DNA of 32,476 bases, from assembly GCA_005878665.1 (NCBI GenBank), contig VBLR01000115.1, forward strand, positions 1-32,476. The letters are read 5' to 3'. How positions within the stretch are numbered: position 1 is the stretch's first letter; every line of letters begins with the position of its first letter. The notes under the pieces were generated by a model, which saw only the letters and a program-made list of their open reading frames with translations, was not told the DNA's origin and searched no databases. The position numbers and the translations under genes are program-made. The DNA comes from Methanobacteriota archaeon. GTDB lineage: Archaea > Thermoplasmatota > Thermoplasmata > RBG-16-68-12. Below, piece after piece: positions 9,248 to 24,342 of the stretch.

Positions 9248-9273
9248 GATAACCAAAGCCCGTTTCTTAAATA
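9248..9273 (+). promoter_or_regulatory. Putative promoter: GATAACCA-N10-CTTAAATA (TATA box plus upstream motif), copy 1
   Basis: TTAAATA fits the archaeal TATA consensus. The same 8+10+8 arrangement recurs at 10780-10805. Confidence 0.65.
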
Positions 9274-9344
9274 AGGCGCGGGCCGCTCGATTTCTCCGTA
9301 CACGAAGCGCGAGGAGGTTCCCTCGCGACCCAGGCGGTCAGCGT

Positions 9345-10748
9345 ATGCAAGGGGCGATCGAAGCTCTGCTTTCCGGTCTCGTATTCCGAGGGCTCGGCCC
9401 CGCCGTCTCCGGAATCCTCATGGCGGCTCCGCTGAAGAAGGTCGCTCGGGCTCAGCTCAAGAAGATTTACGTCCTCGATGAGCGGGGCGAGATGGCCGGC
9501 GAGTACGTCCTCGATTCGGACTGCCCGATCGACTACAACGACTTCCTGAAAGTCCTGCCGGACGAAGGAATCGGCGACCGCGATTCGCTCTTCGTCGGCG
9601 AATACGTGTTCACGGCCTTCCAGAGCGGTAAGTTCGCGTTCGTCCTTCTGTCACGCGGCCAGCTCGCACCGGACGATGTCAACTGGACCGCCCTCCTCCT
9701 CACGGCCGCGGATTCGCATCTCGCGTCCGCGGCGAACCGCCCCCCACCTGCTCGTACCGAACCGAAACCGGATGCCGACAAGGGATTCGCGGAGCGTGAC
9801 GCACGCCTCCAAGCGAAGGAAAAATCCCTCGCAGAGCTGGAGGCAAAACTCAAAGCGGACGCGGCGAACGTGAGCGGGCGCCAGGAGGAGCTCGACCGGC
9901 AGAAGGCGAGGCTGGCGGCCCTCGCCGACTATTCCACCCAACTTCAGGACGCGGTGTCCAAAGGAGCCTCCCGATCCGCGAAGACCCTCGAAATCGCGGA
10001 ACAACTCGCGGCGAGTTCCAACGAGGAATCGAAGAAGGCCGAGTCGAAAGCCAATTCGGAAGTACGACAGGCGTTCGAGCAAGAGCGAAGGGCGCTCATT
10101 GCCGCGAAGACCGATCTCGAGACCCGTTACCAAGAGGCTTCCGCGCGGATCGCACAGCTCGAGAAGGAAGCGAAGGACTCCGTCGCCATCCTCGAGAAGG
10201 AGCGGGCAGAGGCCTCCGCCCGGGCCGCGGAAGATGACAAAACGCGCCGCGAGATCGAGAGCCGCGTGGCCGACCTGAGCCAGCGTTTCACTTCGATGGC
10301 GAAAGAGCGCCTCGTCGCGTCCCATCGCCCCCCGGGCGAAGTCTCCGAGGAAGTCCGGAAGGCGATGGAGGGCGAGAAAGCCGAGTTGGCGCGGGAGCGC
10401 AAATTCCTCCAACGACGGGCGATCGAGCTCTTGGATCGCGAGGAGCGAGTCCGGGACCGCGAAGCCCGGGTCGACGATCGGGACCGTGAATTCGGGCGGC
10501 GGGAGCAGGATCTCGCGGCCCGCGAGCAGGATTTGGACCGGCAGAGGACCCTCCTGGCCCAGGCGAAGCCGCAAGCCCCCGAAGTTCGCGCCGAACCGGA
10601 CGAAGCGAAAAAAGACATCGAACGGCGCGTGAAAATCATCCAGCAGAAGGCGCTGGAACTCCTGGATCGCGAGGAGAAGCTCCGAAAGCGCGCAGCGGAG
10701 CTGGAGGCGATGGAAGCTCGACTCGCCGGTCGCGTAACGGCCGAGTGA
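9345..10748 (+). CDS. Hypothetical soluble protein: N-terminal longin-like alpha/beta domain plus coiled coil; paralogue of the giant protein's cytoplasmic tail
   Basis: 467-aa ORF (alternative start ATG 9420). Globular segment LKKIYVLDERGEM...VLLSRG, a Pro-rich linker, then an E/R/K/A/L-rich coiled coil with LxxRE heptads. The C-terminal KIIQQKALELLDREEKLRK is shared with the downstream giant. Confidence 0.85.
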   Translation: MQGAIEALLSGLVFRGLGPAVSGILMAAPLKKVARAQLKKIYVLDERGEMAGEYVLDSDCPIDYNDFLKVLPDEGIGDRDSLFVGEYVFTAFQSGKFAFVLLSRGQLAPDDVNWTALLLTAADSHLASAANRPPPARTEPKPDADKGFAERDARLQAKEKSLAELEAKLKADAANVSGRQEELDRQKARLAALADYSTQLQDAVSKGASRSAKTLEIAEQLAASSNEESKKAESKANSEVRQAFEQERRALIAAKTDLETRYQEASARIAQLEKEAKDSVAILEKERAEASARAAEDDKTRREIESRVADLSQRFTSMAKERLVASHRPPGEVSEEVRKAMEGEKAELARERKFLQRRAIELLDREERVRDREARVDDRDREFGRREQDLAAREQDLDRQRTLLAQAKPQAPEVRAEPDEAKKDIERRVKIIQQKALELLDREEKLRKRAAELEAMEARLAGRVTAE

Positions 10749-10779
10749 CCGGCTCTAGTTCTCCAAGGAAATCAGGTCA

Positions 10780-10805
10780 GATAACCACCAAACGGCGCTT
10801 AAATA
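10780..10805 (+). promoter_or_regulatory. Putative promoter: GATAACCA-N10-CTTAAATA, copy 2
   Basis: Identical motifs and spacing to 9248-9273, located in the intergenic gap upstream of the giant gene. Confidence 0.65.
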
Positions 10806-11010
10806 GGTCCCAGCGGAACCGGCGGTAAGCCACCCAGACGCTCGCCAGAGTCGTGACGACTTTGAACGTCTCATGTGCCGCACTGCCAGGTTCCTACCAC
10901 GACGTCGCACGAGGTGCCTCGACTCGAACTCCCGGTCCTCCGGCCACGTCGATGAGCGGCAGCGCCGGTCGTCGCGACCCCTCCGCCTCCGTCCAGGACG
11001 TGGTGGTCTC

Positions 11011-14000
11011 GTGAAGGCGGGAACCGCGATCCTGCTCGCCTTCATCCTCCTCGCGACTGCCATCCTGGTGGTCGCAAGTCAGTCGATGCCCGACCCGCTC
11101 GCGAAGTTCCGGACCCCGGACGGTCGGCTCACGATTCCGGGGCGTGCACTGACATCGGAACTGCAACGATTGCTGTTCCATAGTAATGATCTGCAGCCTT
11201 ACACGAATGTCACCTTCCTGCTCCCGGCGAGATCCACGTATCCGACGGAGCGCCTCGTGGCCATGTCATTTGCATCTCCAAATCTCAACGTCTTCGTCCA
11301 TCTACGTCAAGCGCCGGAAACGTGGGGCAGCGCCATTGACCACGTCCTCCGAGTGTGGTTCCCACCGGTCGACTGGCACGAAGTGGGAATCGGAATCCGA
11401 GACTCGGTCCGGGACGGCGTAGGGTGGTTTTTCGATCTCTTCACGATGAACGCCAAGGCCGATACATTGTCGGTGGATTCGACCACCGTCTCGGTCGTCG
11501 ACCCGGCCGCCGCCACCTGCACGACCTCTCAATCGGCAGCGGCGGGAGACAACGCGGTGCTCGTGATGCTCAGCAATCGCGGCCCGACCGCATACACCAC
11601 CGTCACTTACGGCTCGGTCAGCCTGGGTCTGATTGCTGGGACCGCCACGAGCGGCACGGGATTCGTCCGGACGGAGATGTGGTTCTATCAGGGCGCGATT
11701 CCGAGCGGGGCGCAAACGATGACGGCCACGCTGGTGAGCGGCACCGCGAAACAGGTATGTGCAACGGTACTCCTGAGCGGCGTCTGGGCCCCGACTCCGA
11801 CTGCAGGAGGAACCAGCGCCAGCGGGACGACCGCGAATCCGAGCATTTCGATCTCTCCGGCATCCGCCGGCGAGCTGGCTTTCGCGGTGATGGGGATTCG
11901 AGGGACTACGGCACCGACGGCGGTCACCGGCACGGGAGCCACCGCGACGAGTCTCTACGGGATTGCGCCGACCCAGTGCACCAGCGCCCCCTCCACTTCA
12001 TGCGGAGCGGGGGCCGACATGCCCTTCCCCGGAACGGCAATCACGTGGACGGACGGCAACGCCACGGACTGGGTCGTTTCCGCGGTTCGTGTATTGCCCA
12101 CCCCCAACTGCGGCGCTGCATCGGGGAATTGCTACCGGATTGGCGCGGGCGGGACGTGGGCCACGGGCGCGAATTGGTCGAATACGTCCGGCGGGGCAGC
12201 GTGCGGCTGCACTCCGGTGGCAACGAACAATGCCATCTTCAACGCCACCCCCACGGGCACCACGACTCTCGCCGCGGCGACCACGATCGCCAGCATCGAC
12301 ATGACGAACTTCACCGGCACGCTCGATACGACCGCATCCAATTGGGGCCTGACGGTGAACGGCCCGTTCGCCATCCAAGGCACCCTCCTGGCCCGGAATT
12401 CGACCATCGTCGTCACCGGAGACGTGGTCATGCTGACCGCGGGGACGATCGTCAATCTCGGCGCATCGGCGTGGACGATCAACGGATTGTGGACGAATCT
12501 CTCCACCTCCGCCTCGTGGGTCGCGGGGACGAGCACGGTCACGATCCGAGATGCCGCGAGCGGGACGCTGACATTCGCCGCACTCGCCGGCGGGACGAAC
12601 GAGTTCAACAATCTCACGCTCGATGCCACCGTGACCACCAGCATCACCTACACGATGGCGGCGAACCCGCTCCGGATGGGAGCGACCCTCACGATTCGCA
12701 ACTCGACCGGCGGGGCGACGGGACCGACCATCTTGACGACATCGGCGTCGAACCTCGGCATCACGACGGGCGCGCTCGCCCTTACGACCTTTGGAAGCCT
12801 GACGGCGAATGGGTCCGCCGTCGTGGTCAACGGCAACGTGAACGTCAGCGCCGCGAACGGCTACGTCGTCATGGGTTCGTCGACCTGGACCGTCACGGGC
12901 ACTTGGACGAACGCTTCGACGTCCGCCTCATGGAGCGCCGGGACGGGCACGGTCACGTTCACGAGTGCGACCGGCGGGACGATGACGTTCGCCGGTGCGA
13001 ATCTTCCCGGGAACGAGCTCAACAACGTTTCGTTCACCTCCTCGGCCGCGTCCGCCCAGACGTTCACCATGGCAACGAGGGCCCTGATCTGGGGCGGGAC
13101 GCTCACGATCTCGGACGGTTCTTCGACCACGGCGCTCGCAACGGCGAGTCTCGGCCTGACTGGCGGCGCACTCAGCGTCGGCAACGGCGGCATCCTCACC
13201 GCGAACGCATCCACGGTCACGGCATCGAGCGTGGCGATGACCGGGGGAACGAGCGGAACGATTACGCTCACGACCAGCTCGTTCACCAGCACCGGCAACT
13301 GGGACACGAGCGGAGCCGGCTCCGTGTTCACGAAGGGAACGAGCACGGTGACGATGAGCGGTGTGGCTAACATCGCCATTCTGAACGCGAGCAACAACTT
13401 CAACAACCTAGTCATCTCCGCGGCGGGAACGGTCACCCAATCCGGGCTCGTGGACGTCTCTGGGACGTTGACCGTGAATGGCGGCTCGGTCCTCGCGAGT
13501 GGCACCTTCACGTTGACCGTGGCCACCCTCGCGGCGAACATGGCAGGTGGAATCACGGCAGGAGCGGCAGGCACGAAGACCATCACCGGGAATGTCAGCA
13601 TCGCCGCCGCGGGATACTTCAGCTTCGGCGCGGCGACCTGGAACTTCGGCGGTTCGTGGACGAACTCGTCGACGAGTGGATCGTGGTCCGTCGGAACGGG
13701 CACGGTCGTCTTCAATTCCGGCTCGTCTCGCACAATGACCTTCGCCAACTTGGGAGTCTCGGAGTTCAACAACGTGCAGTTCAGCCCGACCGCCGCAGCA
13801 ACGTTCACCATGGTCACGAACGGCCTGCGGTGGGGAGGCACGCTGACGCTCAACAACAATGCGACCCTTTCGACCGGGAACCTCGCGCTGACGGGCCCGG
13901 GCGGGAACCTCACCGTGAACAACGGGGCCACCTTGACCGCGGGCACGTCGGTCGTGAGCGCGACCAACGTGACGATGACGGGCGGGACCTCGGGAGCAAT

Positions 14001-17000
14001 CACGGCCTCCGGGTCGTGGACCGTCTCCGGAAACTGGGACACATCCGGAGCGGGCTCCGTACTCACCGCGGCTTTGAGCACGGTGACGCTGAGCGGAACC
14101 GCGAAGACCGTCCGGATCCTGAACGCATCCAACGGCTTTGGGGCACTCACGATCAGCGGCACGGTTTCCGCGGCGTCGGCAATCACCCTCTCCGGCCTCC
14201 TGACGGTCAGCGGCACCTTCGACACGACCGCGACCAACTACGGCCTGTCGATTGGCGGTGGCCTGACGGTCAGCGGCGTCGCGGGAATCCTCCGGTCAAA
14301 TGGATCGACGGTCTCTGTGGCCGGGAATGTTTCCGTGAACAATGCGGGCGGCTACATCACGTCCGGCGCCGCCGGTTCGTGGACCGTCTCGGGATCCTGG
14401 ACGAACACGTCGACGTCCGCATCTTGGAATTTCGCGGCGTCCATCACGTTTAACTCATCGGTCTCCCAAACGATGACCTTCGCGGTCCTTCCCGGAGGCG
14501 CCGCCGAGTTCACCGACATCGCGTTCAACAGCGGTCCGTCGACCGTCACGTTTACCATGGCGACGAATCGCCTCATCTGGTCGGGGACCTTGGCGGTCCA
14601 GGGTGGGGCCGGAGCGACGACGCTCGCTACGAGCAACCTGGGCCTCACCGGCGGCGCAATCACCATCGACGACGGCGGCGTGTTGACCGCGAATGCATCG
14701 GCGGTCAGTGCATCGAACGTCACGATGACCGGCGGTGCGTCAGGTACGCTGACGCTTACCACGGGCGCATGGACCATAACCGGTAACTGGGACACATCCG
14801 GCGCAGGCTCGACCTTTACGGGCACGGCCAGCACCGTGACGATGACCGGGGCGGTTACGACCGTCAAGATCCTGAACGCGTCGAACGGGTTCGGAGCACT
14901 CGTCATCGGTGGCACCGTCTCCGCCGCCTCGGCCCTCACGACCGCGGGGCTCGTGACTGTGAGTGGTACGCTCGACACGACGGCGACGAACTACGGCCTC
15001 ACGGTCGGCGGCGGACTCACCGTCAGCGGTGCGAGTGGGGTGCTCCGCTCGAATGCGTCGATTGTCTCCGTGGCCGGGAACGTGAGTATCAACAACGCCG
15101 CGGGCTACATCACATCGACGGCCGGCGGTTCTTGGACCGCGTCCGGATCGTGGACGAACTCCGCGACGTCAGCCTTGTGGAGTTTCGCCGCTCCGATCAC
15201 CTTCAACTCGTCGGCCTCGCGAACGATGACGTTCGGTAACCCGCCCCTCGAATTTGGCGGGAACGTCACCTTCAACTCCGGTGCATCGACGGTCTCTTTC
15301 ACGATGGCCGCAAACAGCCTAGACGTCGGTGGGACGCTCACAATCGCAGGCGGAGCCGGAACGACGACGCTGAATACGAGTGGTTCAAACCTCGCCATCA
15401 ACGCGGTCGCATTCGTTGTGAACGCGGGAGGAGCCCTCACGGCCAACGGGTCCACAATCACCGTCACATCGATGGACACCCATCTCGGCACGTTCGCGGT
15501 CGGCGCCTCGACCGTCGTCGTGAACGCCTCGGGCGGCACGATTGACATCACGCAGACCGTCAACAATCTCACGGTCAATCCGGCCGTCTCGACAACGTTC
15601 GCTGGATCCCTCACGTGGACGGGAACCCTCACCTTCACGAGCGCCGGGACCGTCGCGTTCGGAACGAATAGTCTGACCTCCAGTGGCGCCGCGACGTTCA
15701 CGTTCGCGTCGGCGACGGTCACGATGAGCTCGGGGAACTGGGATACGTCTTCGGCCACGACCTTCACTGCGACGAGTTCGACGGTTACGTTCTCAGGGAC
15801 TGGAAATCTTCGGATCGGGGGGAGCGCCTCCTTTGATGTGCTCGTCGTCAGTGGCGGCACCCGGACTCTCCAGAGCCAACTCACGACGGCGGGACTCCTG
15901 ACCCTTTCGGGCGGCATCCTCGCCAAGGGGGCGAACGCTCTCACTGCTAACACCGGACTGACGATGTCAGGAGGCGCGATCACGTCCACCTCCGGTGTTG
16001 TCAGCATCACCGGCAATGTATCGATCGTGGCAGCCGCGTCCTACATCGTCTTCGGTTCCGAATCCTGGACCGTGAGTGGCTCGTGGACGAACAATTCCAC
16101 GTCGGCGAGTTGGTCGATCGGAACCGCGACCGTGGCCTTCAACGCGTCCTCGGCGCAGACGATGACGTTCGCGGCTCTCCCGGGGAACGCACCCGAGTTC
16201 TACAACGTGACCTTCAATAGCGGCGTGTCGACGGTCACGTTCACGATGACGGCGAATGCCCTGGCTTGGTCCGGAATCCTCACGGTCCAAGGCGGGAGCG
16301 GGGTGACGACGCTCGCCTCGAGCAATCTCGGACTCACGGGAGGCGCCATCGTCGTAGGCAATGCGGGAGCCCTCGCGGCGAACGCCTCCGCGGTGTCCGT
16401 CTCCGGGGTGACGATGATCGGAGGTGCGAGCGGCACGTTGACGTTGACGACCGGTTCATGGACCGTCTCCGGCAGCTGGAACACAAGCGGGCTGGGCTCG
16501 GCATTCGCGAAAGGCACCTCGACGGTCACCTTGACCGGGGCCGCGCAGACCGTATCCATTCGCAACGCATCGAACGGGTTCTACAATCTCAGTGTCTCGG
16601 GCACAATCACTCAATCAACCGCCATCGATGTGTCCAATTCGTTGACGGTGAGCGGAGCGCTGGCCACCGGAGGGTTCAACATTACGGGCGGTTCGAACCT
16701 CTTCGTCCCGGATGGTGGCACCCTGGCGGCGGGCACGTCCACAGCCACGTTCACGAACGTCACGATGACCGGAGGAGTCTCTGGTACGATCTCCCTCACC
16801 GGAGCCTGGACGGTGAGCGGTTCTTGGGACAGCACGGGCGCAGGCTCGGTTCTGAACTCCGGGACATCGACCGTGACCTTCACCGGGACCTCTCAGACCA
16901 TTAGCCTCGCGGCGGGCCAGATGTTCTACAATCTCACGATCGGTGGTACAGTCTCCATCAACTCGACGGCGACCGCGGCGGCTTTAATCGTGAACAACGG

Positions 17001-20000
17001 CGCCGTCCTCACAAAGACGGGCCAGACCATCGCCTTCAACACCCTGACAGAGAACGGGACCGGGAGCATCGTCGACGGACCGATTACCGTAGTGAACTTC
17101 TCCGTCACGAACAGCGATGGAACGAACCTCACGGCCATCAGCGTGTTCACGACGTGGACAATCGACGCGGACTACACATGGACCCATTCATCCACCATCG
17201 CGACCTCGACGATCACCTTCACGATCGGGGGCAACACGAGCGGCCACCGATTCAATGTGACCAAGGACGCCGTTGATTTCACCAACGGGCTCGTGAACGG
17301 TTCCGGTCAGATCATCTTCACGATGCTCGGCTCGGACCCGGTCGTCGACGTCCGCCTTTCATCGTCTTGCGGGGGGAATCGATACTGGATCGGCGGGGCG
17401 GGTAGCTGGTCTCAGACGGCCCACTGGGCGGATTCCTCGGGCGGGGTGAACGGATGCTCCGTGCCGAGCTCCTCGAATGCGGTCTTCTTCGACGCGAGCT
17501 CCGGAGGAGGAACCGTCACGATTAATCTGAATGCCGCCGCGTCTTCGCTCAACTCGACCGGGTGGACGGGGACGCTCGCGATCGGGTCGTTCGACCTCGC
17601 GGTCGGCGGCGACATCACCCATGCGGCGGGAGTCATTTCGATTGGCCCCTCCTCCAACGCCGGCCTGACGGCAACCGGGACTCTCACCCTCTCAGGTTCC
17701 GCCGTCCTCGACGGGTCCGGCGCGGCGTCCCTGGTCACCGTCTCCGGCGACGCGTCAATCACCAGCACGTCGGCTTACTTCCGGATGGGCACTGGCACCT
17801 GGACCTTCGGAGGGTCCTGGTCCAACGGCAGCACCTCGACGAACTGGGTCGCCGGAACCGGCCTCGTGATCTTCGATTCTTCGTCCTCGCAGACGCTCAC
17901 TTTTGCGAATCTTGCGGGGGACGAATTCCACAATGTGACATTCCAGTCCGTGGCGGGCAGCGGGACAATCACCTTCTCGATGGCGGCGAACGGCCTGCGG
18001 TGGGGTGGACTCCTCGTGATCCAAGATTCCGCGGGTTCGACGACCACGCTGGTGACATCGAATCTCGCCCTGACCGGTGGATCCCTTACGGTCGGCAATT
18101 CGGGAGTCCTCATCGCGAACGCATCGAGCGTCGCCGTGGTGGATGTCACGATGGCCGGCGGAGCTTCCGGTACGCTGACCCTCACGAGCGGGTCTTGGAC
18201 CGTAAGCGGGCAATGGGACACGTCCGGCGCCGGTTCGACGTTCGCTCGGGGCACGAGCACGGTTACCCTGTCGGGCACGTCGGCGAGTGTCACGACCCTC
18301 GATGCGACCAATGGATTCAGCAATCTGGTCATTTCCGGCACGATCACGCAGAACACCGCGATCGACGTGCGCGGCACGCTGTCGGTGAGTGGCACGCTCA
18401 CCACATCGGGGAACGACCTCACGGGCGGCGCCAACCTCACGATCTCCGGAGGGGGGAGCCTGGTCGGGACCTCGTCGTCTATCGTCGTCTCCGGGGTGAC
18501 GATGAACGACGCAGGGACGAATTCCATTTCCCTCACGACCGGCTCTATTTCCGCGTCGGGTACATGGGACACCTCCGGGGCGTCCTCGGCATTCACTGCC
18601 GGCTCGTCCACCGTGACCCTCACCGCCGCCTCCGCAACGATGGCGCTCGGGCCCGCTCAAGCGCTCGCGTCCTTGATCATCGCAGGGAACGTCTCGTTGG
18701 CATCCCCGTTGACGGTCTCCTCCCTCACAATCTCCTCGGGCGGACTCGCGAAAGGCCCGCACCCGCTGACCGTGAACAGCAATCTGACGCTGGCGGGCGG
18801 CTACCTCACCTCGACGTCTGGGTCGGTCTCGATCGCAGGAAATGTGAGCATTTCTTCGGCGTCGTCTTACATCGCGTTTGGCTCGGAAACCTGGATCGTC
18901 TCCGGGAATTGGACGAACGCCTCGACCTCGGCATCTTGGTCCGCAGGGTCTGCCGTGGTCACATTCAACGCGACGACGGACCAGATCATGACATTCGCTG
19001 GGGCCAACCTTGCTGGCAACGAATTCAGCACGGTTGAGTTTGACAGCGGCTCCTCGACCACGACGTTCACGATGGCCGCAGATGGCCTTGTGGCCCAGAC
19101 CATCACAATCCAAGGTGGCTCCGGGACGACGATTTTGACGACCTCGGGTGCGAGTCTCCCAATCATGGCGAATGCCCTGACCGTGGGCATTGGTGGCGCG
19201 CTTACGGCCAACGCCAGCATCCTGACGGTGCGCTCGCTGAGCACCGCCGCTGGCGTATTCGCAGCCGGGACGTCGACCGTCGTCGTCAACCTCTCCGGCG
19301 GCTCCGTCGATGTCACGCAGACGTTGTACGACATCGTCGTGAGCCCTGGAATCAGTACGACCTTTGTCTCGAGCATCACCTGGTCCGGGGCACTAACGCT
19401 GACGAGCTCCACATCGGTTTTCAACGGCAGTCTGATTTCCAACGGCCCGGCGGTCCTGAACCTCGGAGCATCCACGCTCTCCATCGCAGGATCGTGGGAC
19501 ACCTCCTCGACGACGACTCTCACGTCGATCGGCTCCGCGGTGACCTTTACCAGCGTGACCGGCTCGATCACCCTCGGTGCGAGTCAGCGGTTCGCCACGT
19601 TGACCATCGCCGGGACCGTCGCTCTCGCGACCGACCTGAGCGCGGACACCCTGACCGTGACAAGCTCGAACGTATTGACGATGACGAACCACCGCATCGC
19701 ATTCAACAGTCTGACGGTCAGCGGGACGATTACAGACGGATCCGTCAACGTGACCGACCTCACGGTCACGAACAGCGACACGACCGCCTCGGTCACCATT
19801 GCGGGGTTCAGCGAGTGGTCCCGAGGCTCCTCATACGCCTGGACCCACACCTCGAGCGAATCGTCCCAGACGATCACGTGGACGATCGGTGGAAATGCCG
19901 CGACCATCCCGTACGCCGTGACGAAAGACGGCTCGTCCTTCGCAACCGGAACGGTCAACAGTTCCGGTCAGGTGATCTTCACGATGCTCGGCTCCGACCC

Positions 20001-23000
20001 CGCCATGCAGGTGACCGTGCACAACCCGATTCCGCCTCCGTGGTGGCAGTCATCCTATCTGCTTGCGATCTTCCCCATTGGAATCCTCTTGGGTGTTGCA
20101 ATGTTCGCGCAACGACAGCGCTGGAGGCCCGCGAAGGCCTTCCTCGTGGACGACAGCGGGAGAATGCTCAGGGAATTCACCCTGGACCCGGCCTGCCAGG
20201 TCACGTACGACCAGGCGGTGCAGGCTGGCATCTTGGACGCGGTCGACAAGCCGATCAAAGTCACGAAGTACCACGGCCAGACCGTCCGCGGGGACGCGCT
20301 GGGGGTCGTGCTCCTCGCCTACGGGCCGGTCACCCTCGAGCACGTCGAGTTCGCGCGTGAGATGCTGGTCCAGATTCAGGACAAGTTCGAGGACGCCGTC
20401 AAACAACGCCTCGAAGATGCCCGGGCCCAAGAGGCCAGTGTCGCCACGCAGATGGAAGGCCTCGAGGCACGCCGGACGGAAGTCGAGACGCGAGCAGCCG
20501 AGGTCGAATCGATGACCCAGCGAGCGGAAGCCCGAGAGACAAAGATCGCCGCGGACACCGAATCGCTCGAGGCGAAAGAGCAGGACCTCCGCCGACGGGA
20601 GGACGACTTGGCGGAAGGCCGCAAGGCGGTCGATGAGCAAGTGCGACAAGTCGAAGAACTCCGGACCTCGATCGACCGACGTACCGAGGAAGTCCAGGGG
20701 CAGGCGGCCGAGGTCATCGCTAAGTCCGAGGCGGTCCGGATTCGAGAAGAGGGGGCGACCGCGCTCGAAGCGACTCTCCGGCAGCGAGACGACGCGCTTG
20801 GACAAGGAGAGGCCCGCCTGCAAGACGCGATGGAACGCCTCGCGACGGAAACGTCCGAGGTGCATCAGAGGCTGGACGAGGCCGGGCGGCGCGAGGAGGC
20901 CCTGAGCCGGGATCAGGCAGACCTAGCGAACGGCCGTCAGAAGTTCGAGGTGGATCAGAAAGAGCTCCTTGAGTTCAAGCGTTCGATTGACAGCCGGGTC
21001 AGCGCCGTCGAAGAGAGCGAGGCCGCAATGGGCCAGTTGTCGAAAGAGCTCGCGGCACGGGAGGCCCGAATCGCGCCCGACGAAATACGACTCGCGGAGC
21101 GAGCAAATGCGCTCGACCAACAGGAGGCGGAGCTGAAGACCGATGAAAATCGGCTGACCGCGAGGACCCAGGCGCTCATTGCCCAAGCCGAGGACCTGAG
21201 CGCGCGGGAAGTGACGCTCAAAGAGGACCGAGTGGTCCTAGAGGAAGCGCGGGGTGCGTTCGAGTCGGATCGGCGAGAATTCGAGGAGCGCCGTGCGCAG
21301 TATGACGAAGAAATGCGCCGACGCGGGGACGACCTCGATAGCCAGGCGAAGACGTTGGGCGAGAGCCAACTCCGATTGGCCCAGGAGACGGAGACGTTCG
21401 AGGCGGAGCGGACCGAAAAAAGCCAGGCCATCCTTTCCCGCGAAATCGAACTCGAAGCTCGCGAACAGTCTCTCCGGGAAAAGGAGGACGCGGTCCGCGG
21501 CCAGGCGGAGGAAAACGCGCGTCGCGTCGCGGAACTGACGGCCCAAGACGAATCTCTGGAGATCGAGGCGGCGAAAGCGGACAAGCTGCGCGGTGATCTC
21601 GAGGCTCGCAAGGTTGACCTCGCGAACGGCGCGAAGGAACTGGAAGTCGAAGCGGCTCGATTGCGGGACGAGGAAACAAGAGCGGCGGAGGAACGACGGA
21701 CGTGGCAGACGACCCTGGAGTCCGAGCAAGCCCTCCTGAAGGGCCAGCGGGACGCGTTCGAGCAAGAGGCCGCCTCGGCGCGAGCCTCGTGGGCGGATCG
21801 GGTGATGCGGATCGAAGCCCGCGAGGTCGACGCGGAGGAGAAGGAAGAAAAGGTCCGGACGGACGTGGACTGGATCGCCCGGAGCGAGGAGGACCTCAAA
21901 CGCCGGGAGAAGGCCGTCGAAGAGGCCGGGCTGTCCGCGGCTCAGATGAAGGCCACCGCAGAACGCGTCGCGAAGGAGGCCGAACAGCGATTCCTCGAGA
22001 TCGAGTCGCGGGAACGTGCCCTTCGAGAAGAGGCGGCGCAACGCTCCATCGAACTCACACAGCAGACGGAAGGACTGAAGCGAATCGAATCAGAGCTTGG
22101 ATCGAGGCAAGCCGATTTCGAGAAGGAGCGGGTCATGCAGACCGAACGGCTCCGCGAGACCGAGACGAATCTTCAGATGAAGGCCCAAACCCTCGAGGCC
22201 AAGGCCCGCGAACTCGCAGACCGTGAGAGCCGGGTCGCGGCGACGGAGGAAGCGTCTCGCCAGGCCGACTTGCGCGTCCAGCAGGAGCGGGCGGACGTCC
22301 AGGCGACGGCGAAACAGGTCGAATCCCAACAGCTCGAACTCGCACAGCTCAAAGACCGCTACGATTCGGAGGCGGCGCGTGTCCGCAGCGAGATAGAGGG
22401 CATGCGACAATCCGTCGCGGCGAAAGAGGCAGAGCTGCGTGGAGAGAGAGAACGCGTCGAACGGGATTCGGCGGCCCTGCAGGAGACCCTCGGCGCGAAG
22501 GCGAAGGAGATGTCGGTCCGAGAACGGGCGCTCTCCGCGCGAGAGGCAGAACTCCAAGCGGAGGAGCATGAGCTTGAGGCACGCGGGCGGGAACTCGAAT
22601 CAAAGGAGCGCCAAGCCGAGGCCCACCTGACCGAGATGTCCGCGCAGGCGATGGCGCTCATCCGCAGAGAGCAGGATCTGAACACGCGAGGTGCGCAGCT
22701 CGAACAGACGGTCCGTCGGTTCGAGGCCGAAGCGACGGAGAAGCGCCGCGAATGGGAATCCCTCCAGACGAGCCTGAGGTCTCAGGAGGCACAATTCAGC
22801 GCGACGTCCGAATCTCAAATGGCCGAGCTCTCGAAGAAATCGGAAGAACTCGAGGGCCGAGAGCGCAGCCAACGGGCGGCGCTCGCCCAGCTGGAGCTCC
22901 AGCGATCCAAGCTCGAGGCGGAAGCCAAGGCCCAATCGGCCAAGTCCGCAGAAGCGGAGGCGGCGTGGCGGCGATCGGAAGCCCGACTCGCGGAGCTCAA

Positions 23001-24297
23001 GACAAAAGAGGACGATCTCCTCCGGGGGCGTCAGTCGTTCGAATCCGAACGCTCCACCTGGTCCGCCCGCCGAACCGAAGAGCTGAAGCAGCTCGAAGCG
23101 ACGCGAGATGCAGCCGCACAGCAGGCCCAGCAAGCGGAGCGGCTCGTGGCGGAGTCGCATCGCCGGGCCTTGGTCGCGGAAGAAGCCGAACGGGCGGCGA
23201 AACGGCAGACGGCGGACCTGGCTGCCCAACAGACGCGCCTCGAAAATCGTCGGCTCGAAGCCGAGAAGGCGGAGCGCGACGCCCAGGAACACCTCGCCCA
23301 GCTGCAGGATGCCTCCCAGAAGCTGGCGGCGAAAGACATGGAAATCGCCACCTCGCTCAAGAATCTCGAGTCGCGACAGTCAAAACTGGCGGCATCGGAG
23401 CGCGAGTCTGCGGCCCTCCAGGCCGAATTGCGCTCCCGCAAGACCGCCTTGGACCAGGAGTCGACGCGCATCGCCGCATCGTCGGATCAATTGGCAATGC
23501 GTCAAAAGGACTTGGAGTCTCGGACGGCCGCCCTGGAAGCGAAGATGGCGCAAGCCTCGGCGAGGGAACAGGCCCTCGCGACGGAGCTCCAGCGCGCGGA
23601 CAACCTGATGGAAGACCTCACGAAGAAAGAGCGCGACCTTCGCACCCGCGAGGAGACGGCGAAGGGCACCGAGAAGAACTTGGCGGCACGAGAGACGAAC
23701 CTCACCGCCCGGGATGCCGAGGTCAGAGACGGGATGCGAGGACTCGAGAAGCTCCGCAAAGAAATCGAGGACCAGCGAGGTGCAACCGAGGAGGATCGCC
23801 GGACCGCGAAGACGACCCGTGAAGAGGCGGAGGCGACCAAGCGCGAGGCCGACAAGGTCCGCGCCCAGGCCGACGCGATGCAGGCGGAGGTCAACAAGAA
23901 CCTCCGGTTCCTCCAGAAGAAGGCGCTCGACGTGCTGGATCAAGAGGAGAAAATCCGCGCTCGGGTTGCGAACATCGAAGGACAGGAGAAATCGCTCGAC
24001 ACCAGGGGAGAAATCCTCGAGGGGAAGGAACGCGCCCTCGAGGCGGAGCAAGCCACGCTCGATTCAAAGCTCGGGAAACTACAAGCTGAGGTCGACCGAC
24101 TTCGCGCGCGCCTCGCAGAGACGGAAAAGGCGGGAGGCCCGACGACCGCCGCGATGGAAGAGTGGAAGAAAGATGTCGAGAACCGGGTGAAGATCATCCA
24201 GAAGAAGGCCATGGACCTGTTGGACCGCGAGGAAAAGCTCCGGAAGAAGGAGGAGGAGCTCCGTGCACGCGCGAGCCAGCTCGGCGTGAACCCCTAA
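11011..24297 (+). CDS. Giant (~4400 aa) single-pass membrane protein: ~3000-aa Thr/Ser/Gly-rich beta-solenoid ectodomain, TM helix, longin-like domain, ~1300-aa cytoplasmic coiled coil
   Basis: Uninterrupted ORF (the track starts it at ATG 10873). GTG 11011, preceded by GGTGG, gives a signal-peptide-like MKAGTAILLAFILLATAILVVA. Repeats WTNxSTSASW, EFNN, TFTMAxNxL and GNWDTSGAGS. TM YLLAIFPIGILLGVAMFA plus QRQRWR at about 20050-20125. Charged heptad repeats run from about 20400 to the end. Confidence 0.9.
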   Translation: MKAGTAILLAFILLATAILVVASQSMPDPLAKFRTPDGRLTIPGRALTSELQRLLFHSNDLQPYTNVTFLLPARSTYPTERLVAMSFASPNLNVFVHLRQAPETWGSAIDHVLRVWFPPVDWHEVGIGIRDSVRDGVGWFFDLFTMNAKADTLSVDSTTVSVVDPAAATCTTSQSAAAGDNAVLVMLSNRGPTAYTTVTYGSVSLGLIAGTATSGTGFVRTEMWFYQGAIPSGAQTMTATLVSGTAKQVCATVLLSGVWAPTPTAGGTSASGTTANPSISISPASAGELAFAVMGIRGTTAPTAVTGTGATATSLYGIAPTQCTSAPSTSCGAGADMPFPGTAITWTDGNATDWVVSAVRVLPTPNCGAASGNCYRIGAGGTWATGANWSNTSGGAACGCTPVATNNAIFNATPTGTTTLAAATTIASIDMTNFTGTLDTTASNWGLTVNGPFAIQGTLLARNSTIVVTGDVVMLTAGTIVNLGASAWTINGLWTNLSTSASWVAGTSTVTIRDAASGTLTFAALAGGTNEFNNLTLDATVTTSITYTMAANPLRMGATLTIRNSTGGATGPTILTTSASNLGITTGALALTTFGSLTANGSAVVVNGNVNVSAANGYVVMGSSTWTVTGTWTNASTSASWSAGTGTVTFTSATGGTMTFAGANLPGNELNNVSFTSSAASAQTFTMATRALIWGGTLTISDGSSTTALATASLGLTGGALSVGNGGILTANASTVTASSVAMTGGTSGTITLTTSSFTSTGNWDTSGAGSVFTKGTSTVTMSGVANIAILNASNNFNNLVISAAGTVTQSGLVDVSGTLTVNGGSVLASGTFTLTVATLAANMAGGITAGAAGTKTITGNVSIAAAGYFSFGAATWNFGGSWTNSSTSGSWSVGTGTVVFNSGSSRTMTFANLGVSEFNNVQFSPTAAATFTMVTNGLRWGGTLTLNNNATLSTGNLALTGPGGNLTVNNGATLTAGTSVVSATNVTMTGGTSGAITASGSWTVSGNWDTSGAGSVLTAALSTVTLSGTAKTVRILNASNGFGALTISGTVSAASAITLSGLLTVSGTFDTTATNYGLSIGGGLTVSGVAGILRSNGSTVSVAGNVSVNNAGGYITSGAAGSWTVSGSWTNTSTSASWNFAASITFNSSVSQTMTFAVLPGGAAEFTDIAFNSGPSTVTFTMATNRLIWSGTLAVQGGAGATTLATSNLGLTGGAITIDDGGVLTANASAVSASNVTMTGGASGTLTLTTGAWTITGNWDTSGAGSTFTGTASTVTMTGAVTTVKILNASNGFGALVIGGTVSAASALTTAGLVTVSGTLDTTATNYGLTVGGGLTVSGASGVLRSNASIVSVAGNVSINNAAGYITSTAGGSWTASGSWTNSATSALWSFAAPITFNSSASRTMTFGNPPLEFGGNVTFNSGASTVSFTMAANSLDVGGTLTIAGGAGTTTLNTSGSNLAINAVAFVVNAGGALTANGSTITVTSMDTHLGTFAVGASTVVVNASGGTIDITQTVNNLTVNPAVSTTFAGSLTWTGTLTFTSAGTVAFGTNSLTSSGAATFTFASATVTMSSGNWDTSSATTFTATSSTVTFSGTGNLRIGGSASFDVLVVSGGTRTLQSQLTTAGLLTLSGGILAKGANALTANTGLTMSGGAITSTSGVVSITGNVSIVAAASYIVFGSESWTVSGSWTNNSTSASWSIGTATVAFNASSAQTMTFAALPGNAPEFYNVTFNSGVSTVTFTMTANALAWSGILTVQGGSGVTTLASSNLGLTGGAIVVGNAGALAANASAVSVSGVTMIGGASGTLTLTTGSWTVSGSWNTSGLGSAFAKGTSTVTLTGAAQTVSIRNASNGFYNLSVSGTITQSTAIDVSNSLTVSGALATGGFNITGGSNLFVPDGGTLAAGTSTATFTNVTMTGGVSGTISLTGAWTVSGSWDSTGAGSVLNSGTSTVTFTGTSQTISLAAGQMFYNLTIGGTVSINSTATAAALIVNNGAVLTKTGQTIAFNTLTENGTGSIVDGPITVVNFSVTNSDGTNLTAISVFTTWTIDADYTWTHSSTIATSTITFTIGGNTSGHRFNVTKDAVDFTNGLVNGSGQIIFTMLGSDPVVDVRLSSSCGGNRYWIGGAGSWSQTAHWADSSGGVNGCSVPSSSNAVFFDASSGGGTVTINLNAAASSLNSTGWTGTLAIGSFDLAVGGDITHAAGVISIGPSSNAGLTATGTLTLSGSAVLDGSGAASLVTVSGDASITSTSAYFRMGTGTWTFGGSWSNGSTSTNWVAGTGLVIFDSSSSQTLTFANLAGDEFHNVTFQSVAGSGTITFSMAANGLRWGGLLVIQDSAGSTTTLVTSNLALTGGSLTVGNSGVLIANASSVAVVDVTMAGGASGTLTLTSGSWTVSGQWDTSGAGSTFARGTSTVTLSGTSASVTTLDATNGFSNLVISGTITQNTAIDVRGTLSVSGTLTTSGNDLTGGANLTISGGGSLVGTSSSIVVSGVTMNDAGTNSISLTTGSISASGTWDTSGASSAFTAGSSTVTLTAASATMALGPAQALASLIIAGNVSLASPLTVSSLTISSGGLAKGPHPLTVNSNLTLAGGYLTSTSGSVSIAGNVSISSASSYIAFGSETWIVSGNWTNASTSASWSAGSAVVTFNATTDQIMTFAGANLAGNEFSTVEFDSGSSTTTFTMAADGLVAQTITIQGGSGTTILTTSGASLPIMANALTVGIGGALTANASILTVRSLSTAAGVFAAGTSTVVVNLSGGSVDVTQTLYDIVVSPGISTTFVSSITWSGALTLTSSTSVFNGSLISNGPAVLNLGASTLSIAGSWDTSSTTTLTSIGSAVTFTSVTGSITLGASQRFATLTIAGTVALATDLSADTLTVTSSNVLTMTNHRIAFNSLTVSGTITDGSVNVTDLTVTNSDTTASVTIAGFSEWSRGSSYAWTHTSSESSQTITWTIGGNAATIPYAVTKDGSSFATGTVNSSGQVIFTMLGSDPAMQVTVHNPIPPPWWQSSYLLAIFPIGILLGVAMFAQRQRWRPAKAFLVDDSGRMLREFTLDPACQVTYDQAVQAGILDAVDKPIKVTKYHGQTVRGDALGVVLLAYGPVTLEHVEFAREMLVQIQDKFEDAVKQRLEDARAQEASVATQMEGLEARRTEVETRAAEVESMTQRAEARETKIAADTESLEAKEQDLRRREDDLAEGRKAVDEQVRQVEELRTSIDRRTEEVQGQAAEVIAKSEAVRIREEGATALEATLRQRDDALGQGEARLQDAMERLATETSEVHQRLDEAGRREEALSRDQADLANGRQKFEVDQKELLEFKRSIDSRVSAVEESEAAMGQLSKELAAREARIAPDEIRLAERANALDQQEAELKTDENRLTARTQALIAQAEDLSAREVTLKEDRVVLEEARGAFESDRREFEERRAQYDEEMRRRGDDLDSQAKTLGESQLRLAQETETFEAERTEKSQAILSREIELEAREQSLREKEDAVRGQAEENARRVAELTAQDESLEIEAAKADKLRGDLEARKVDLANGAKELEVEAARLRDEETRAAEERRTWQTTLESEQALLKGQRDAFEQEAASARASWADRVMRIEAREVDAEEKEEKVRTDVDWIARSEEDLKRREKAVEEAGLSAAQMKATAERVAKEAEQRFLEIESRERALREEAAQRSIELTQQTEGLKRIESELGSRQADFEKERVMQTERLRETETNLQMKAQTLEAKARELADRESRVAATEEASRQADLRVQQERADVQATAKQVESQQLELAQLKDRYDSEAARVRSEIEGMRQSVAAKEAELRGERERVERDSAALQETLGAKAKEMSVRERALSAREAELQAEEHELEARGRELESKERQAEAHLTEMSAQAMALIRREQDLNTRGAQLEQTVRRFEAEATEKRREWESLQTSLRSQEAQFSATSESQMAELSKKSEELEGRERSQRAALAQLELQRSKLEAEAKAQSAKSAEAEAAWRRSEARLAELKTKEDDLLRGRQSFESERSTWSARRTEELKQLEATRDAAAQQAQQAERLVAESHRRALVAEEAERAAKRQTADLAAQQTRLENRRLEAEKAERDAQEHLAQLQDASQKLAAKDMEIATSLKNLESRQSKLAASERESAALQAELRSRKTALDQESTRIAASSDQLAMRQKDLESRTAALEAKMAQASAREQALATELQRADNLMEDLTKKERDLRTREETAKGTEKNLAARETNLTARDAEVRDGMRGLEKLRKEIEDQRGATEEDRRTAKTTREEAEATKREADKVRAQADAMQAEVNKNLRFLQKKALDVLDQEEKIRARVANIEGQEKSLDTRGEILEGKERALEAEQATLDSKLGKLQAEVDRLRARLAETEKAGGPTTAAMEEWKKDVENRVKIIQKKAMDLLDREEKLRKKEEELRARASQLGVNP
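12121..20030 (+). repeat. Degenerate protein-level repeat array of the giant ectodomain, arranged as two super-modules
   Basis: Recurring segments WTVSGSWTNxSTSASW...MTFA...EFxNVxF...TFTMAxNxLxWxGxL...LTGG...MTGGxSG...WDTSGAGS...ILNASNGF. Cap motifs at about 12130 and 17380. End modules finishing IFTMLGSDP at about 17340 and 20000. Confidence 0.8.
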
Positions 24298-24342
24298 TCG
24301 ACAACGAGGCGGAACCGACGCCGTAGCCGATTGCGCCGAGCA

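What the first reader, a model, noticed from the sequence alone, without database searches (positions are those of the whole stretch)
9345..24297. Candidate undescribed two-protein system: giant transmembrane adhesin plus a soluble miniature copy of its cytoplasmic tail
Seen: the two adjacent co-oriented genes share three elements. (i) A globular domain, KKIYVLDERGEMAGEYVLDSDCPIDY versus AKAFLVDDSGRMLREFTLDPACQVTY (9/26 identical ungapped, including a Cys), and FAFVLLSRG versus LGVVLLAYG. (ii) An LxxRE coiled coil of about 300 versus about 1300 aa. (iii) A near-identical terminal motif present twice in each protein. Only the giant has a signal peptide, a 3000-aa ectodomain and a TM helix. Both genes have the same promoter element. 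Inference: the soluble protein hetero-oligomerises with the adhesin tails or bridges them, making a membrane-spanning link from an extracellular adhesive rod to an intracellular coiled-coil scaffold, loosely analogous to adhesion-receptor/cytoskeleton coupling. Roles in cell shape, cell-cell contact or polar anchoring are possible in a lineage whose cultured members often lack a wall.
Basis: partly seen in the sequence, partly recalled or inferred. Interest (0 to 1): 0.88.

Follow-up and report, generated by a model that had tools for sequence, protein, structure and literature searches.

The report
Archaeal longin coiled-coil surface-protein pair
Two neighbouring genes of an uncultured soil archaeon are related: a giant cell-surface protein with a very long rod-like tail inside the cell, and a short copy that lacks the outside part, which together may tie the cell surface to an internal scaffold, though no function has been tested.

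Summary
The small gene B (9345-10748, 467 aa) and the giant gene (10873-24297, likely start GTG 11011) are paralogs. They share three things:
- a ~100-aa globular domain (BLASTP E 3e-5; one profile hits both at 1e-48 and 1e-41);
- a long helical rod (~320 vs ~1285 aa);
- a C-terminal module with two copies of a Q-x-K-A-x-x-L-L-D-R-E-E-K-L-R motif.

The shared domain models as a longin-like fold. The giant's ectodomain models with high confidence as a beta-helix rod of the kind seen in autotransporter adhesins.

B and the giant lie on one contig, same strand, giant downstream, in 15 of 29 same-genus genomes; in the other 14 they are on different contigs or one was not found. Both carry a GATAACC-N12/13-TTAAATA promoter signature that occurs only three times in the 1.75-Mb genome. 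The motif was found in 10 of 201 class genomes, always in genes that carry the domain.

Three corrections:
- B is probably membrane-anchored, not soluble.
- Most relatives have a third, soluble paralog upstream.
- The ectodomain is swapped between species while the cytoplasmic parts are kept.

Hetero-oligomerisation and a scaffold role remain inference. I found no description in print.

The parts
9248..9273 (+). Promoter signature of the small gene B: GATAACC, 12 bases, CTTAAATA (TATA-like box)
   Evidence: Read. One of only 3 such sites in the genome. Conserved upstream of B in 8 relatives' loci; two more have a near form.
9308..9327 (+). Conserved 7-bp inverted repeat or hairpin in the 5' leader of B (CGCGAGG ... 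CCTCGCG)
   Evidence: fold_alignment of 8 sequences: the 7 pairs are kept in 6 to 8 of 8 sequences, and no pair changes on both sides. It could be an RNA hairpin or a DNA operator; this is not decided.
9345..10748 (+). Small paralog B, 467 aa
   Evidence: 187 relatives at E<=1e-3, most about 465-469 aa.
9357..9431 (+). N-terminal hydrophobic segment of B (aa ~5-29), a probable membrane anchor followed by K/R-rich residues
   Evidence: KD19 maximum 1.53. 44 of 113 orthologs reach 1.6. Distant homologs P0205 and P0215 have a clear TM helix at this position. The membrane role is inferred.
9453..9734 (+). Longin-like domain of B (aa ~37-130)
   Evidence: AF2 model with core pLDDT about 90 and topology b-b-a-b-b-b-a. 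Top structural matches are longin and roadblock domains, Z 8.6 to 5.4.
9777..10745 (+). Helical rod / coiled-coil tail of B (aa ~145-467)
10374..10505 (+). Motif copy 1 of B (RKFLQRRAIELLDREERVR)
   Evidence: 2.1e-14.
10605..10736 (+). Motif copy 2 of B (RVKIIQQKALELLDREEKLRKR), ending about 20 aa before the C-terminus
   Evidence: 3.0e-19.
10780..10805 (+). Promoter signature of the giant gene: GATAACC, 13 bases, CTTAAATA
   Evidence: Conserved in 8 relatives' loci.
10873..24297 (+). Giant paralog. The ORF from the first ATG is 4474 aa. The conserved start is probably GTG at 11011, giving about 4428 aa.
   Evidence: In relative L026 the frame opens only at the GTG. Full-length orthologs of 4428-4484 aa occur in other assemblies.
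11011..11076 (+). Signal peptide / first hydrophobic helix (aa 47-68)
   Evidence: KD19 up to 2.68.
11077..20040 (+). Ectodomain (aa 69-3056). It is rich in T/S/G/A, has 72 N-x-S/T sequons, and is built of diverged ~125/250-aa repeats. It is modelled as a beta-helix (solenoid).
   Evidence: Composition and sequons: 72 against 57.5 +/- 6.0 in shuffles. Repeats. AF2 of aa 944-1443: pLDDT 91.6. Best structural match Vag8 passenger, Z 17.8, followed by tailspikes and autotransporter adhesins.
20041..20112 (+). Transmembrane helix (aa 3057-3080), followed by QRQRWRPAK
   Evidence: KD19 up to 2.17.
20131..20442 (+). Longin-like domain of the giant (aa 3087-3190)
   Evidence: 7.0e-41. 63-95% identical among 8 orthologs.
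20443..24294 (+). Cytoplasmic helical rod / coiled coil (aa 3191-4474)
   Evidence: 3 prolines in 1285 aa and 1 sequon. Sub-threshold SMC/Rad50 coiled-coil hits.
23878..24009 (+). Motif copy 1 of the giant (LRFLQKKALDVLDQEEKIR)
   Evidence: 1.0e-18.
24163..24294 (+). Motif copy 2 of the giant (RVKIIQKKAMDLLDREEKLRKK), at the C-terminus
   Evidence: 4.9e-21.

Best explanation
SHOWN. The two genes belong to a lineage-restricted paralog family of Thermoplasmata. The family layout is: membrane anchor, then a juxtamembrane longin-like domain, then a long alpha-helical rod, then a C-terminal module with two copies of a conserved motif.

The giant member adds a signal peptide and a ~3000-aa glycosylation-sequon-rich beta-helix ectodomain, so it is a single-pass surface protein. 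B is the same cytoplasmic layout without an ectodomain and with a short rod.

INFERRED mechanism.
- The giant's beta-helix projects from the cell as a surface fibre or coat. I estimate ~50 nm from standard beta-helix geometry.
- Its ~1285-aa tail would be ~190 nm long if it is a continuous coiled coil. It lies in the cytoplasm or under the membrane.
- B is anchored beside it and has a ~48-nm rod.
- The two co-assemble through the parts they share and that evolve slowest: the longin-like domains at the membrane end and the double-motif module at the far end.
- The result would be a scaffold that couples the surface layer to the cell interior.
- The shared, rare promoter signature suggests co-regulation.
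For: Paralogy: domain BLASTP E 3e-5; the A1 profile hits both genes; the tail motif is found only in these two genes of the genome.

Fold: b-b-a-b-b-b-a model with core pLDDT about 90. Nearly all of the top 50 structural rows are longin or roadblock domains, with AP2 mu N-terminal domain at Z 8.6 over 91 aligned residues.

Topology: signal peptide, TM helix with positive residues after it, and 72 sequons outside against 1 inside.

Ectodomain: beta-helix model at pLDDT 91.6, Z 17.8 to the Vag8 passenger over 351 aligned residues.

Synteny: B and the giant are directly adjacent in 8 of 8 fetched relatives' loci that hold both. They lie on one contig, same strand, giant downstream, in 15 of 29 same-genus genomes; in the other 14 they are on different contigs or one was not found.

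Co-occurrence: small and giant forms are also both present, unlinked, in two other families of the order, f4 and f6.

Constraint: TM plus longin is 63-95% identical and the C-terminal module 55-86% identical among orthologs. The central rod is 42-77% identical. The ectodomain shows no detectable similarity in 4 of 8 relatives. These ranges leave out the rod and C-terminal figures of L017, whose gene is cut by the contig end.

Promoter: 2 of the genome's 3 GATAACC-N10-18-TTAWATA sites lie upstream of these genes, and the signature is conserved in relatives.

Gene integrity: contigs of two other soil runs cover all 30 bins of the 15.5 kb, and table 5 reports no joint.
Against: No interaction has been shown. 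Adjacency of paralogs is what a tandem duplication gives on its own.

In families f4 and f6 the small and giant genes are not linked, so linkage is not required.

Family f10 (43 of 46 genomes) has only one soluble ~760-aa longin-plus-rod protein, with no motif (0 of 22) and no giant. The domain therefore works without a surface partner there.

The longin assignment rests on a model built from 29 sequences. Z values of 7-8 are in the range the tool calls 'middling', Foldseek found nothing at E<=1e-3 (best 4.5e-3), and Pfam and PDB sequence profiles give nothing.

B's N-terminal segment is only borderline hydrophobic.

The heptad signal is moderate: 28-37% of windows have a ratio above 2.

Expression is not shown. 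There are only six 151-nt contigs from two RNA libraries, all inside the giant gene, and DNA carry-over is not excluded.

The pieces listed do not bridge the ectodomain/TM junction (22 of 367 pieces were shown). A low-depth back-joint form, 12712 to 11225, exists in both DNA runs.
Confidence: 0.45

Rival explanations
1. Independent paralogs. B, the giant and paralog A (where present) each form their own homo-oligomers and do different jobs. Their adjacency and shared promoter element are leftovers of tandem duplication, and no hetero-complex exists.
For: The small and giant genes are unlinked in f4 and f6. f10 keeps a single soluble member. The subclade of this genome lost A without losing B or the giant: G000, G019, G020, G023 and G255 show no third match. 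The longin domains of B and the giant are only 17-24% identical.
Against: The two shared end modules are the slowest-evolving parts of the giant. The double motif keeps the same arrangement in both proteins across three families and occurs in no other gene. Small and giant forms co-occur in every f1, f4 and f6 genome that had the motif (10 of 10).
Confidence: 0.3
2. Signalling platform. By analogy with longin and roadblock domains that act as GEF/GAP platforms, the juxtamembrane domain recruits or regulates one of the organism's many Ras-family small GTPases. Events at the surface fibre would then be relayed inward, with the rod serving as a spacer or effector dock.
For: Longin-like fold. The genome holds 15 Ras-family matches, 12 of them at E<=1e-20, and 4 Roadblock/LC7 genes over the cut-off. 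Established knowledge of MglB, Ragulator, TRAPP and Mon1-Ccz1.
Against: No GTPase gene lies in the window. Ras-family expansions are just as present in sister families that lack this domain family: f2 4/4, f3 5/5 and f7 6/6, against 0/6, 0/7 and 1/11. There is therefore no specific phyletic link. No conserved catalytic-type residues were identified, only E, C, V, G and L.
Confidence: 0.15
3. Assembly artefact. The giant ORF is a chimera of a repetitive surface-protein gene and an unrelated coiled-coil gene.
For: The contig comes from a fragmented MAG of 178 contigs. The ectodomain is highly repetitive at protein level. A low-depth back-joint form is seen in two runs (table 5c). The listed contig pieces do not span 19709-20102 in X6 or 19885-20232 in X7.
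Against: The same signal peptide-ectodomain-TM-longin-rod layout appears in 8 other assemblies fetched, with ORFs of 4428-4484 aa in three of them, and in many more. DNA repeats are at most 80% identical. Two other runs cover every bin at even depth, and table 5 reports no joint. The TM helix and the longin domain follow each other in B-like homologs as well.
Confidence: 0.02

Closest known systems
Longin / roadblock platform domains (AP mu and sigma N-terminal domains, TRAPP sedlin/synbindin, VAMP7/Ykt6/Sec22 longin, Rag C-terminal domains, LAMTOR, MglB/MglC)
   Same: The predicted five-stranded sheet with b-b-a-b-b-b-a order. These domains fill nearly all of the top 50 structural rows, Z 8.6 to 5.4. 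Paralogous copies encoded side by side recall the paired use of such domains; that comparison is from my own knowledge.
   Different: There is no sequence-level match to any Pfam longin or Robl_LC7 model or to PDB sequences. The domain sits directly after a TM helix and is fused to a rod of 300-1300 aa. No GTPase or SNARE partner is known. It occurs in Thermoplasmata, whereas the archaeal longin literature I found concerns Asgard archaea (listing; passages of PMC11188069).
Beta-helix passenger domains of autotransporter and two-partner-secretion adhesins (Vag8, Ag43, TibA, UpaB, EtpA, Fap2) and phage tailspikes
   Same: The ectodomain segment models as a long right-handed beta-solenoid. Best matches: Vag8 Z 17.8 over 351 aligned residues, TibA 13.1, UpaB 13.0, Fap2 11.8.
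   Different: Foldseek gives no hit at E<=1e-3 (best EtpA 9.9e-2) and there is no Pfam match. Anchoring is by a C-terminal TM helix plus cytoplasmic tail rather than an outer-membrane barrel. The host is an archaeon, and N-x-S/T sequons are enriched. Adhesion itself is untested.
Mycoplasma attachment organelle (TM adhesins plus long coiled-coil cytoskeletal proteins such as HMW2). The comparison is from my own knowledge.
   Same: A wall-less-cell logic in which surface adhesins are coupled to an internal coiled-coil-rich scaffold. A weak hit to the 'Mplasa_alph_rch' helix-rich model, 24.1 bits.
   Different: That hit is far below its cut-off of 270, so there is no homology. Here the adhesin-like part and the rod are one polypeptide, and whether this organism has a wall is unknown.
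Eukaryotic trans-membrane linkers (LINC complex nesprins, integrin-talin). The comparison is from my own knowledge.
   Same: The concept only: a single-pass protein with a very long rod on one side of the membrane that couples two compartments mechanically.
   Different: There is no sequence or domain relation. The partner filaments are unknown. The analogy was not tested here.
SMC / Rad50 and bacterial coiled-coil-rich proteins (crescentin, FilP, Scy)
   Same: A long, proline-poor heptad-type rod. NCBIfam SMC and Rad50 models touch the tail.
   Different: Scores are 32.8 and 17.8 bits against cut-offs of 729 and 700. Only coiled-coil stretches match. There are no ATPase heads and no hinge.

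Membership tests
Longin domain (SNARE-like superfamily) | b1-b2-a1-b3-b4-b5-a2 topology with a five-stranded antiparallel sheet | tested here: met
   The AF2 model of B aa 27-140 has elements E11-18, E24-29, H38-44, E55-58, E61-68, E71-78 and H83-104, with core pLDDT about 90. This is a model, not a solved structure.
Longin domain (SNARE-like superfamily) | Clear structural similarity to solved longin domains | tested here: inconclusive
   VIA-align gives Z 8.6 (AP2 mu, 91 aligned residues, rmsd 2.9), 8.2 (synbindin), 7.8 (sedlin) and 7.4 (VAMP7). The tool warns that Z 7-8 is common. The best Foldseek E-value is 4.5e-3, with none at <=1e-3.
Longin domain (SNARE-like superfamily) | Sequence-profile match to a curated longin-type family | tested here: not met
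   Pfam-A finds 0 families at E<=1 for both proteins. The best PDB sequence-profile E-value is 0.54, to calmodulin.
Longin domain (SNARE-like superfamily) | Binding of a small GTPase, SNARE helix or partner longin domain | not testable with these tools
Roadblock/LC7 (PF03259) | Match to the Robl_LC7 model, and an N-terminal helix before the first strand | tested here: not met
   No Pfam hit. The genome's Robl_LC7 matches lie on contigs C108, C44, C52 and C114, not in this window. The model begins with strands, but residues 1-26 of B were not modelled.
Autotransporter / TPS beta-helix adhesins | Right-handed beta-helix passenger fold | tested here: met
   pLDDT 91.6, all short strands. Z 17.8 to Vag8, with 128 chains at Z>=8, chiefly beta-helices among the rows shown.
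Autotransporter / TPS beta-helix adhesins | C-terminal outer-membrane beta-barrel or a TpsB partner for export | tested here: not met
   The C-terminal third consists of one TM helix, a longin-like domain and a helical rod. No barrel family is hit.
SMC / Rad50 | Walker A/B ATPase head halves flanking the coiled coil | tested here: not met
   TIGR02169 scores 32.8 bits against a cut-off of 729.4, and only over coiled-coil positions.
Pfam PF27881 (listed as precomputed for many orthologs of B) | Match to the model | not testable with these tools
   The family is not in the held Pfam copy, and no paper holds the accession. In one search it is listed for some full-length orthologs and not for others, so the match is probably marginal. 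I do not know what it describes.

The most novel reading that the evidence does not exclude
An archaeal trans-membrane surface-to-skeleton coupler. In this reading the giant protein's beta-helix fibre outside the cell is mechanically linked, through a juxtamembrane longin-like hub, to a ~190-nm coiled-coil lattice inside. That lattice is co-built with ectodomain-less paralogs (B, and A where present) through a family-specific double-motif end module. It would be a prokaryotic counterpart of adhesion-receptor/cytoskeleton coupling, using a longin-type domain outside Asgard archaea and eukaryotes.
Probability: 0.25. Interest if true: 0.85.

Novelty: new variant of a known kind. Interest (0 to 1): 0.6.

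Why it matters
If the inference holds, these uncultured soil Thermoplasmata would link a glycosylated surface fibre directly to a long internal coiled-coil scaffold. They would do so with a longin-like domain, a fold mostly discussed for eukaryotes and Asgard archaea, placed at the membrane. That would give archaeal cell biology a concrete and tractable candidate for a membrane skeleton or surface anchoring system.

Even without a known function, the family is useful:
- It is sharply delimited. The domain matched 110 cluster representatives of 1.84 billion. The motif was found in 10 of 201 class genomes.
- It has two conserved end modules that can be expressed and tested.
- Its ectodomain is exchanged between species, which suggests selection at the cell surface.

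Tried and rejected
1. Complex prediction of the giant's longin-like domain with B's (alignments A2 and A1) gave no verdict: scores 0.02 and 0.07 against a mark of 0.32. This is neither for nor against binding.

2. Family scans. Pfam on both proteins, on 4 orthologs and on 10 distant members found nothing above cut-offs. NCBIfam found only sub-threshold coiled-coil hits.

3. ESM Atlas. The ectodomain part gave no usable hit. B residues 1-140 gave a best score of 0.87, with one cluster at 0.82 in which 15% of members carry Robl_LC7. This is a lead only.

4. Second surface protein on the contig. I asked whether the cytoplasmic tail of the 1434-aa protein (1704-6008, minus strand) carries the same domain. 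BLASTP gave E 1.3 and hhalign probability 0.2. No relation was found.

5. PF27881 could not be looked up and is in no searchable paper.

6. A link to Ras-family GTPases by phyletic pattern was rejected as non-specific.

7. Self-BLAST of the whole ectodomain returned nothing twice. Cutting it into 250-aa pieces showed the repeats.

8. RNA evidence. Two metatranscriptome runs gave six 151-nt contigs inside the giant gene and none on B. The runs were found with a stretch of the giant gene, so the missing cover on B means nothing.

9. The third GATAACC...TATATA site (contig C41, 11031) precedes a small ORF of about 85 aa with no evident link.

Supplementary files of papers were not opened. The supplementary tables of PMC11188069, which list arCOG families, might mention this family; I did not see them.
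Full report
WHAT IS THERE. The window is one whole contig (C84) of a 1.75-Mb, 178-contig, 77%-complete genome. Sources name the relatives of its proteins as Thermoplasmata.

Two co-oriented ORFs fill 9345-24297: a 467-aa protein, called B here (P0001), and a 4474-aa giant (P0002). In the closest relative the giant's frame opens only at the GTG that corresponds to window 11011. That start gives an ordinary signal peptide, so it is the likelier start.

The giant has these parts, in order:
- a hydrophobic helix at aa 47-68;
- a 2988-aa stretch rich in T/S/G/A, with 72 N-x-S/T sequons (shuffles give 57.5 +/- 6.0);
- a second hydrophobic helix at aa 3057-3080, followed by QRQRWRPAK;
- a 1394-aa stretch rich in E/A/R/L, with one sequon.

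The T/S-rich part is therefore outside the cell and the helical part inside. This topology is inferred from the signal peptide, the sequon distribution and the positive-inside rule.

CHECK OF THE OBSERVATION. All three shared elements are real.

(i) Globular domain. The globular segments align at E 3e-5, 20/82 identical. A 29-sequence alignment of family domains has an invariant Gly and near-invariant Glu, Cys, Val and Leu. As a profile it finds both window genes, at 2.5e-48 and 7.0e-41.

(ii) Helical tails. Both tails are proline-poor helical rods of ~323 and ~1285 aa, with a raised 3.5-residue periodicity. The only family hits are sub-threshold matches to SMC/Rad50 coiled-coil regions.

(iii) Motif. 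Each protein has two copies of a motif with near-invariant Q, A, L, R, E, E and R. The copies lie 77 aa apart in B and 95 aa apart in the giant, and the second ends ~20 aa before the C-terminus. Within the genome, the tail of B finds only the giant's C-terminus (1.8e-12; next best elsewhere 0.058). Across 201 genomes of the class, the motif profile hits only 10, always in ORFs that also carry the domain, and not the other coiled-coil proteins of the remaining 191 genomes. Coiled-coil composition does not explain it.

Promoter. The promoter claim also holds. GATAACC, 12 or 13 bases, then CTTAAATA lies upstream of both genes. This composite occurs three times in the whole genome. It is conserved upstream of B and of the giant in relatives, while the surrounding intergenic sequence varies.

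WHAT THE PARTS ARE. The shared domain models as b-b-a-b-b-b-a, with mean pLDDT 79 and core about 90.
- In an all-against-all structural comparison, almost all top-50 rows are longin or roadblock-type domains: AP2 mu N-terminal domain Z 8.6, synbindin 8.2, sedlin 7.8, an Asgard Rag C-terminal domain 7.7, VAMP7 longin 7.4, LAMTOR, MglB and MglC 5.5-6.8.
- The strand order fits longin rather than roadblock.
- The Z values are in a range the tool calls common. Foldseek finds nothing at E<=1e-3, and sequence profiles find nothing in Pfam or PDB.
- I therefore call the domain longin-like and do not claim membership.

A 500-aa ectodomain segment, aligned with 39 internal and orthologous repeat copies, models at pLDDT 91.6 as short strands throughout. 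It matches beta-helix passengers and tailspikes: Vag8 Z 17.8, TibA 13.1, UpaB 13.0, Fap2 11.8. The 'extracellular rod' is therefore supported as a fold. Adhesion is not tested.

First, B is probably not soluble. Its first ~29 residues form a borderline hydrophobic segment followed by KKVARAQLKK, the same arrangement as the giant's TM helix and linker. The KD19 maximum is 1.53, and 44 of 113 orthologs reach 1.6. More distant family members of 413-454 aa have an unmistakable TM helix there, then the domain, the rod and both motifs.

Second, the family has more members than two. In 8 of 9 fetched same-genus loci that reach far enough upstream of B, a ~220-270-aa paralog A lies directly upstream of B. 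A has the domain and a short rod, but no anchor and no motif. In this genome and its nearest kin A was not found, and the ACT-like gene that precedes A elsewhere (8831-9205) abuts B.

Third, the ectodomain is exchangeable. Four of 8 orthologous giants have a different, ~1350-aa ectodomain with no detectable similarity. In the same comparison the TM plus longin part is 63-95% identical, the rod 42-77% and the C-terminal module 55-86%. The rod and C-terminal figures of L017 are left out because its gene is cut by the contig end. The two modules shared with B are the best-conserved parts of the giant.

DISTRIBUTION AND SYNTENY.
- An exhaustive profile search of 1.84 billion cluster representatives finds only 110 proteins at E<=1e-3.
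- Among 401 genomes of the class, the domain is in 83: f1 (own family) 33/33, f4 2/2, f6 3/3, f7 1/11 (weak), f10 43/46, and none in the other families.
- A phylum-wide draw of 300 further genomes, which held no f1, f4, f6 or f10 member, has none.
- f10 has a single soluble ~750-aa domain-plus-rod protein without the motif.
- In the genus, B and the giant are on one contig, same strand, giant downstream, in 15 of 29 genomes. In the other 14 they fall on different contigs, or one was not found; these are fragmented assemblies.
- In all 8 fetched loci holding both, the two genes are direct neighbours.
- In f4 and f6, small and giant forms co-occur but are unlinked.

IS THE GIANT ORF REAL?
- Orthologs of 4428-4484 aa with the same layout occur in other assemblies.
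- DNA repeats inside the gene are at most 80% identical.
- The junction stretch is held by 20 public soil runs from 16 studies, 4 of which may be the source.
- Contigs of two of these runs cover all 30 bins of 9000-24500 at even depth, and table 5 reports no joint.
- Caveats: the pieces listed do not bridge the ectodomain/TM junction (22 of 367 shown), and a low-depth back-joint form (12712 to 11225) is present in both runs.
- I put the chimera reading at about 2%.

MECHANISM.

Shown: a paralog family whose layout is anchor, longin-like domain, rod and double motif. One member carries a giant beta-helix ectodomain. The family also shows conserved linkage and a shared rare promoter signature.

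Inferred: the rods dimerise as coiled coils, and B and the giant meet through the shared end modules. The hydrophobic pattern of the motif is wider than a simple heptad, and each chain has two copies, so a helical bundle at the tail end is plausible. The assembly would couple a surface fibre to an internal scaffold.

The lengths (~50 nm outside, ~190 nm and ~48 nm inside) are estimates from standard geometry. I give this reading 0.45.

Rivals:
- Independent paralogs with no hetero-complex: 0.3.
- A small-GTPase platform: 0.15. The genome has 15 Ras-family matches and 4 roadblock genes over the cut-off. However, GTPase expansions are equally present in sister families that lack this domain family.
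- Assembly artefact: 0.02.

COMPARISON WITH WHAT IS KNOWN. The fold classes are known: longin-like, beta-helix and coiled coil. I found no description of the combination.
- The search for the PF27881 accession and the three word searches for longin, roadblock, archaea, transmembrane, Thermoplasmata or Thermoplasmatota, coiled-coil and giant protein returned no paper on such a family. For these I saw the listings and abstract starts only.
- Of PMC11188069 I read the passages on 'longin' and 'Thermoplasmata'. They concern ESCRT systems and Asgard multidomain proteins, not this family.
- Sources name the orthologs 'hypothetical protein' or give generic coiled-coil labels.
- A precomputed Pfam accession, PF27881.1, is attached to some orthologs, but I could not find out what it is. 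It may mean that part of the protein is already catalogued.

VERDICT. The finding is a real, conserved and apparently undescribed architecture whose function is inferred only. Interest 0.6.

Noticed in passing
window 1704-6008 (-): A second large surface protein of 1434 aa. It has a signal peptide, NosD-type beta-helix and Ig-like/fn3-like domains, one TM helix, and a ~150-aa cytoplasmic C-terminal domain whose sequence suggests a strand-strand-helix-strand pattern. No relation to the shared domain was found (BLASTP E 1.3; hhalign probability 0.2).
   Followed up: partly
G000 contigs C2, C24, C87, C56, C99, C95, C20, C40, C26, C37, C108: The genome has 15 matches to the Ras small-GTPase family, 12 of them at E<=1e-20. 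They include three in tandem on C2, and one on C108 next to two Roadblock/LC7 genes.
   Followed up: partly
window 9308-9327 (+): A conserved 7-bp inverted repeat (CGCGAGG ... CCTCGCG) in the 5' leader of gene B, kept in 8 relatives with no compensatory changes. It could be an RNA hairpin or a DNA operator. It is followed by a conserved AGGCGG-N-CAGCG just before the ATG.
   Followed up: partly
G000 C41:11031 (+): The only other GATAACC-N-TATATA composite in the genome lies upstream of a small ORF of about 85 aa (it begins MLFVTQLKVLPGQWED). The ORF may share a regulator with the two genes.
   Followed up: partly
window 8831-9205 (+): This small ORF ends with the same sequence as the ACT-like gene that precedes paralog A in relatives. 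In this subclade gene A appears to have been lost exactly between it and B. The overlapping minus-strand ORF 8555-9256 is probably spurious.
   Followed up: partly
window 10806-11010 (+): A ~200-nt stretch between the giant's TATA-like box and the likely GTG start is nearly identical in the three closest relatives. The upstream ATG at 10873 opens an Arg-rich extension that is closed by stops in G019. It is either a long leader or a mis-called start.
   Followed up: partly
L015, L016, L018, L019 (relatives G024, G002, G018, G004): The alternative ~1350-aa ectodomain of the giant in these species begins ADPW..N.DGTS..VWNFT and shows no similarity to the window's ectodomain. Its fold was not examined.
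   Followed up: no
L024 (G022:C96:2339-5629): A fourth architecture: a 1096-aa paralog with a B-like N-terminal hydrophobic segment, the domain, a long rod and three motif copies, but no ectodomain.
   Followed up: no
window 11225-12712: Both DNA runs laid hold a low-depth contig form that joins 12712 back to 11225 with 22 other letters between (depth 4.2 and 8.07, against about 37 and about 200). This may be a strain variant or a repeat-driven misjoin in the ectodomain's first part.
   Followed up: no
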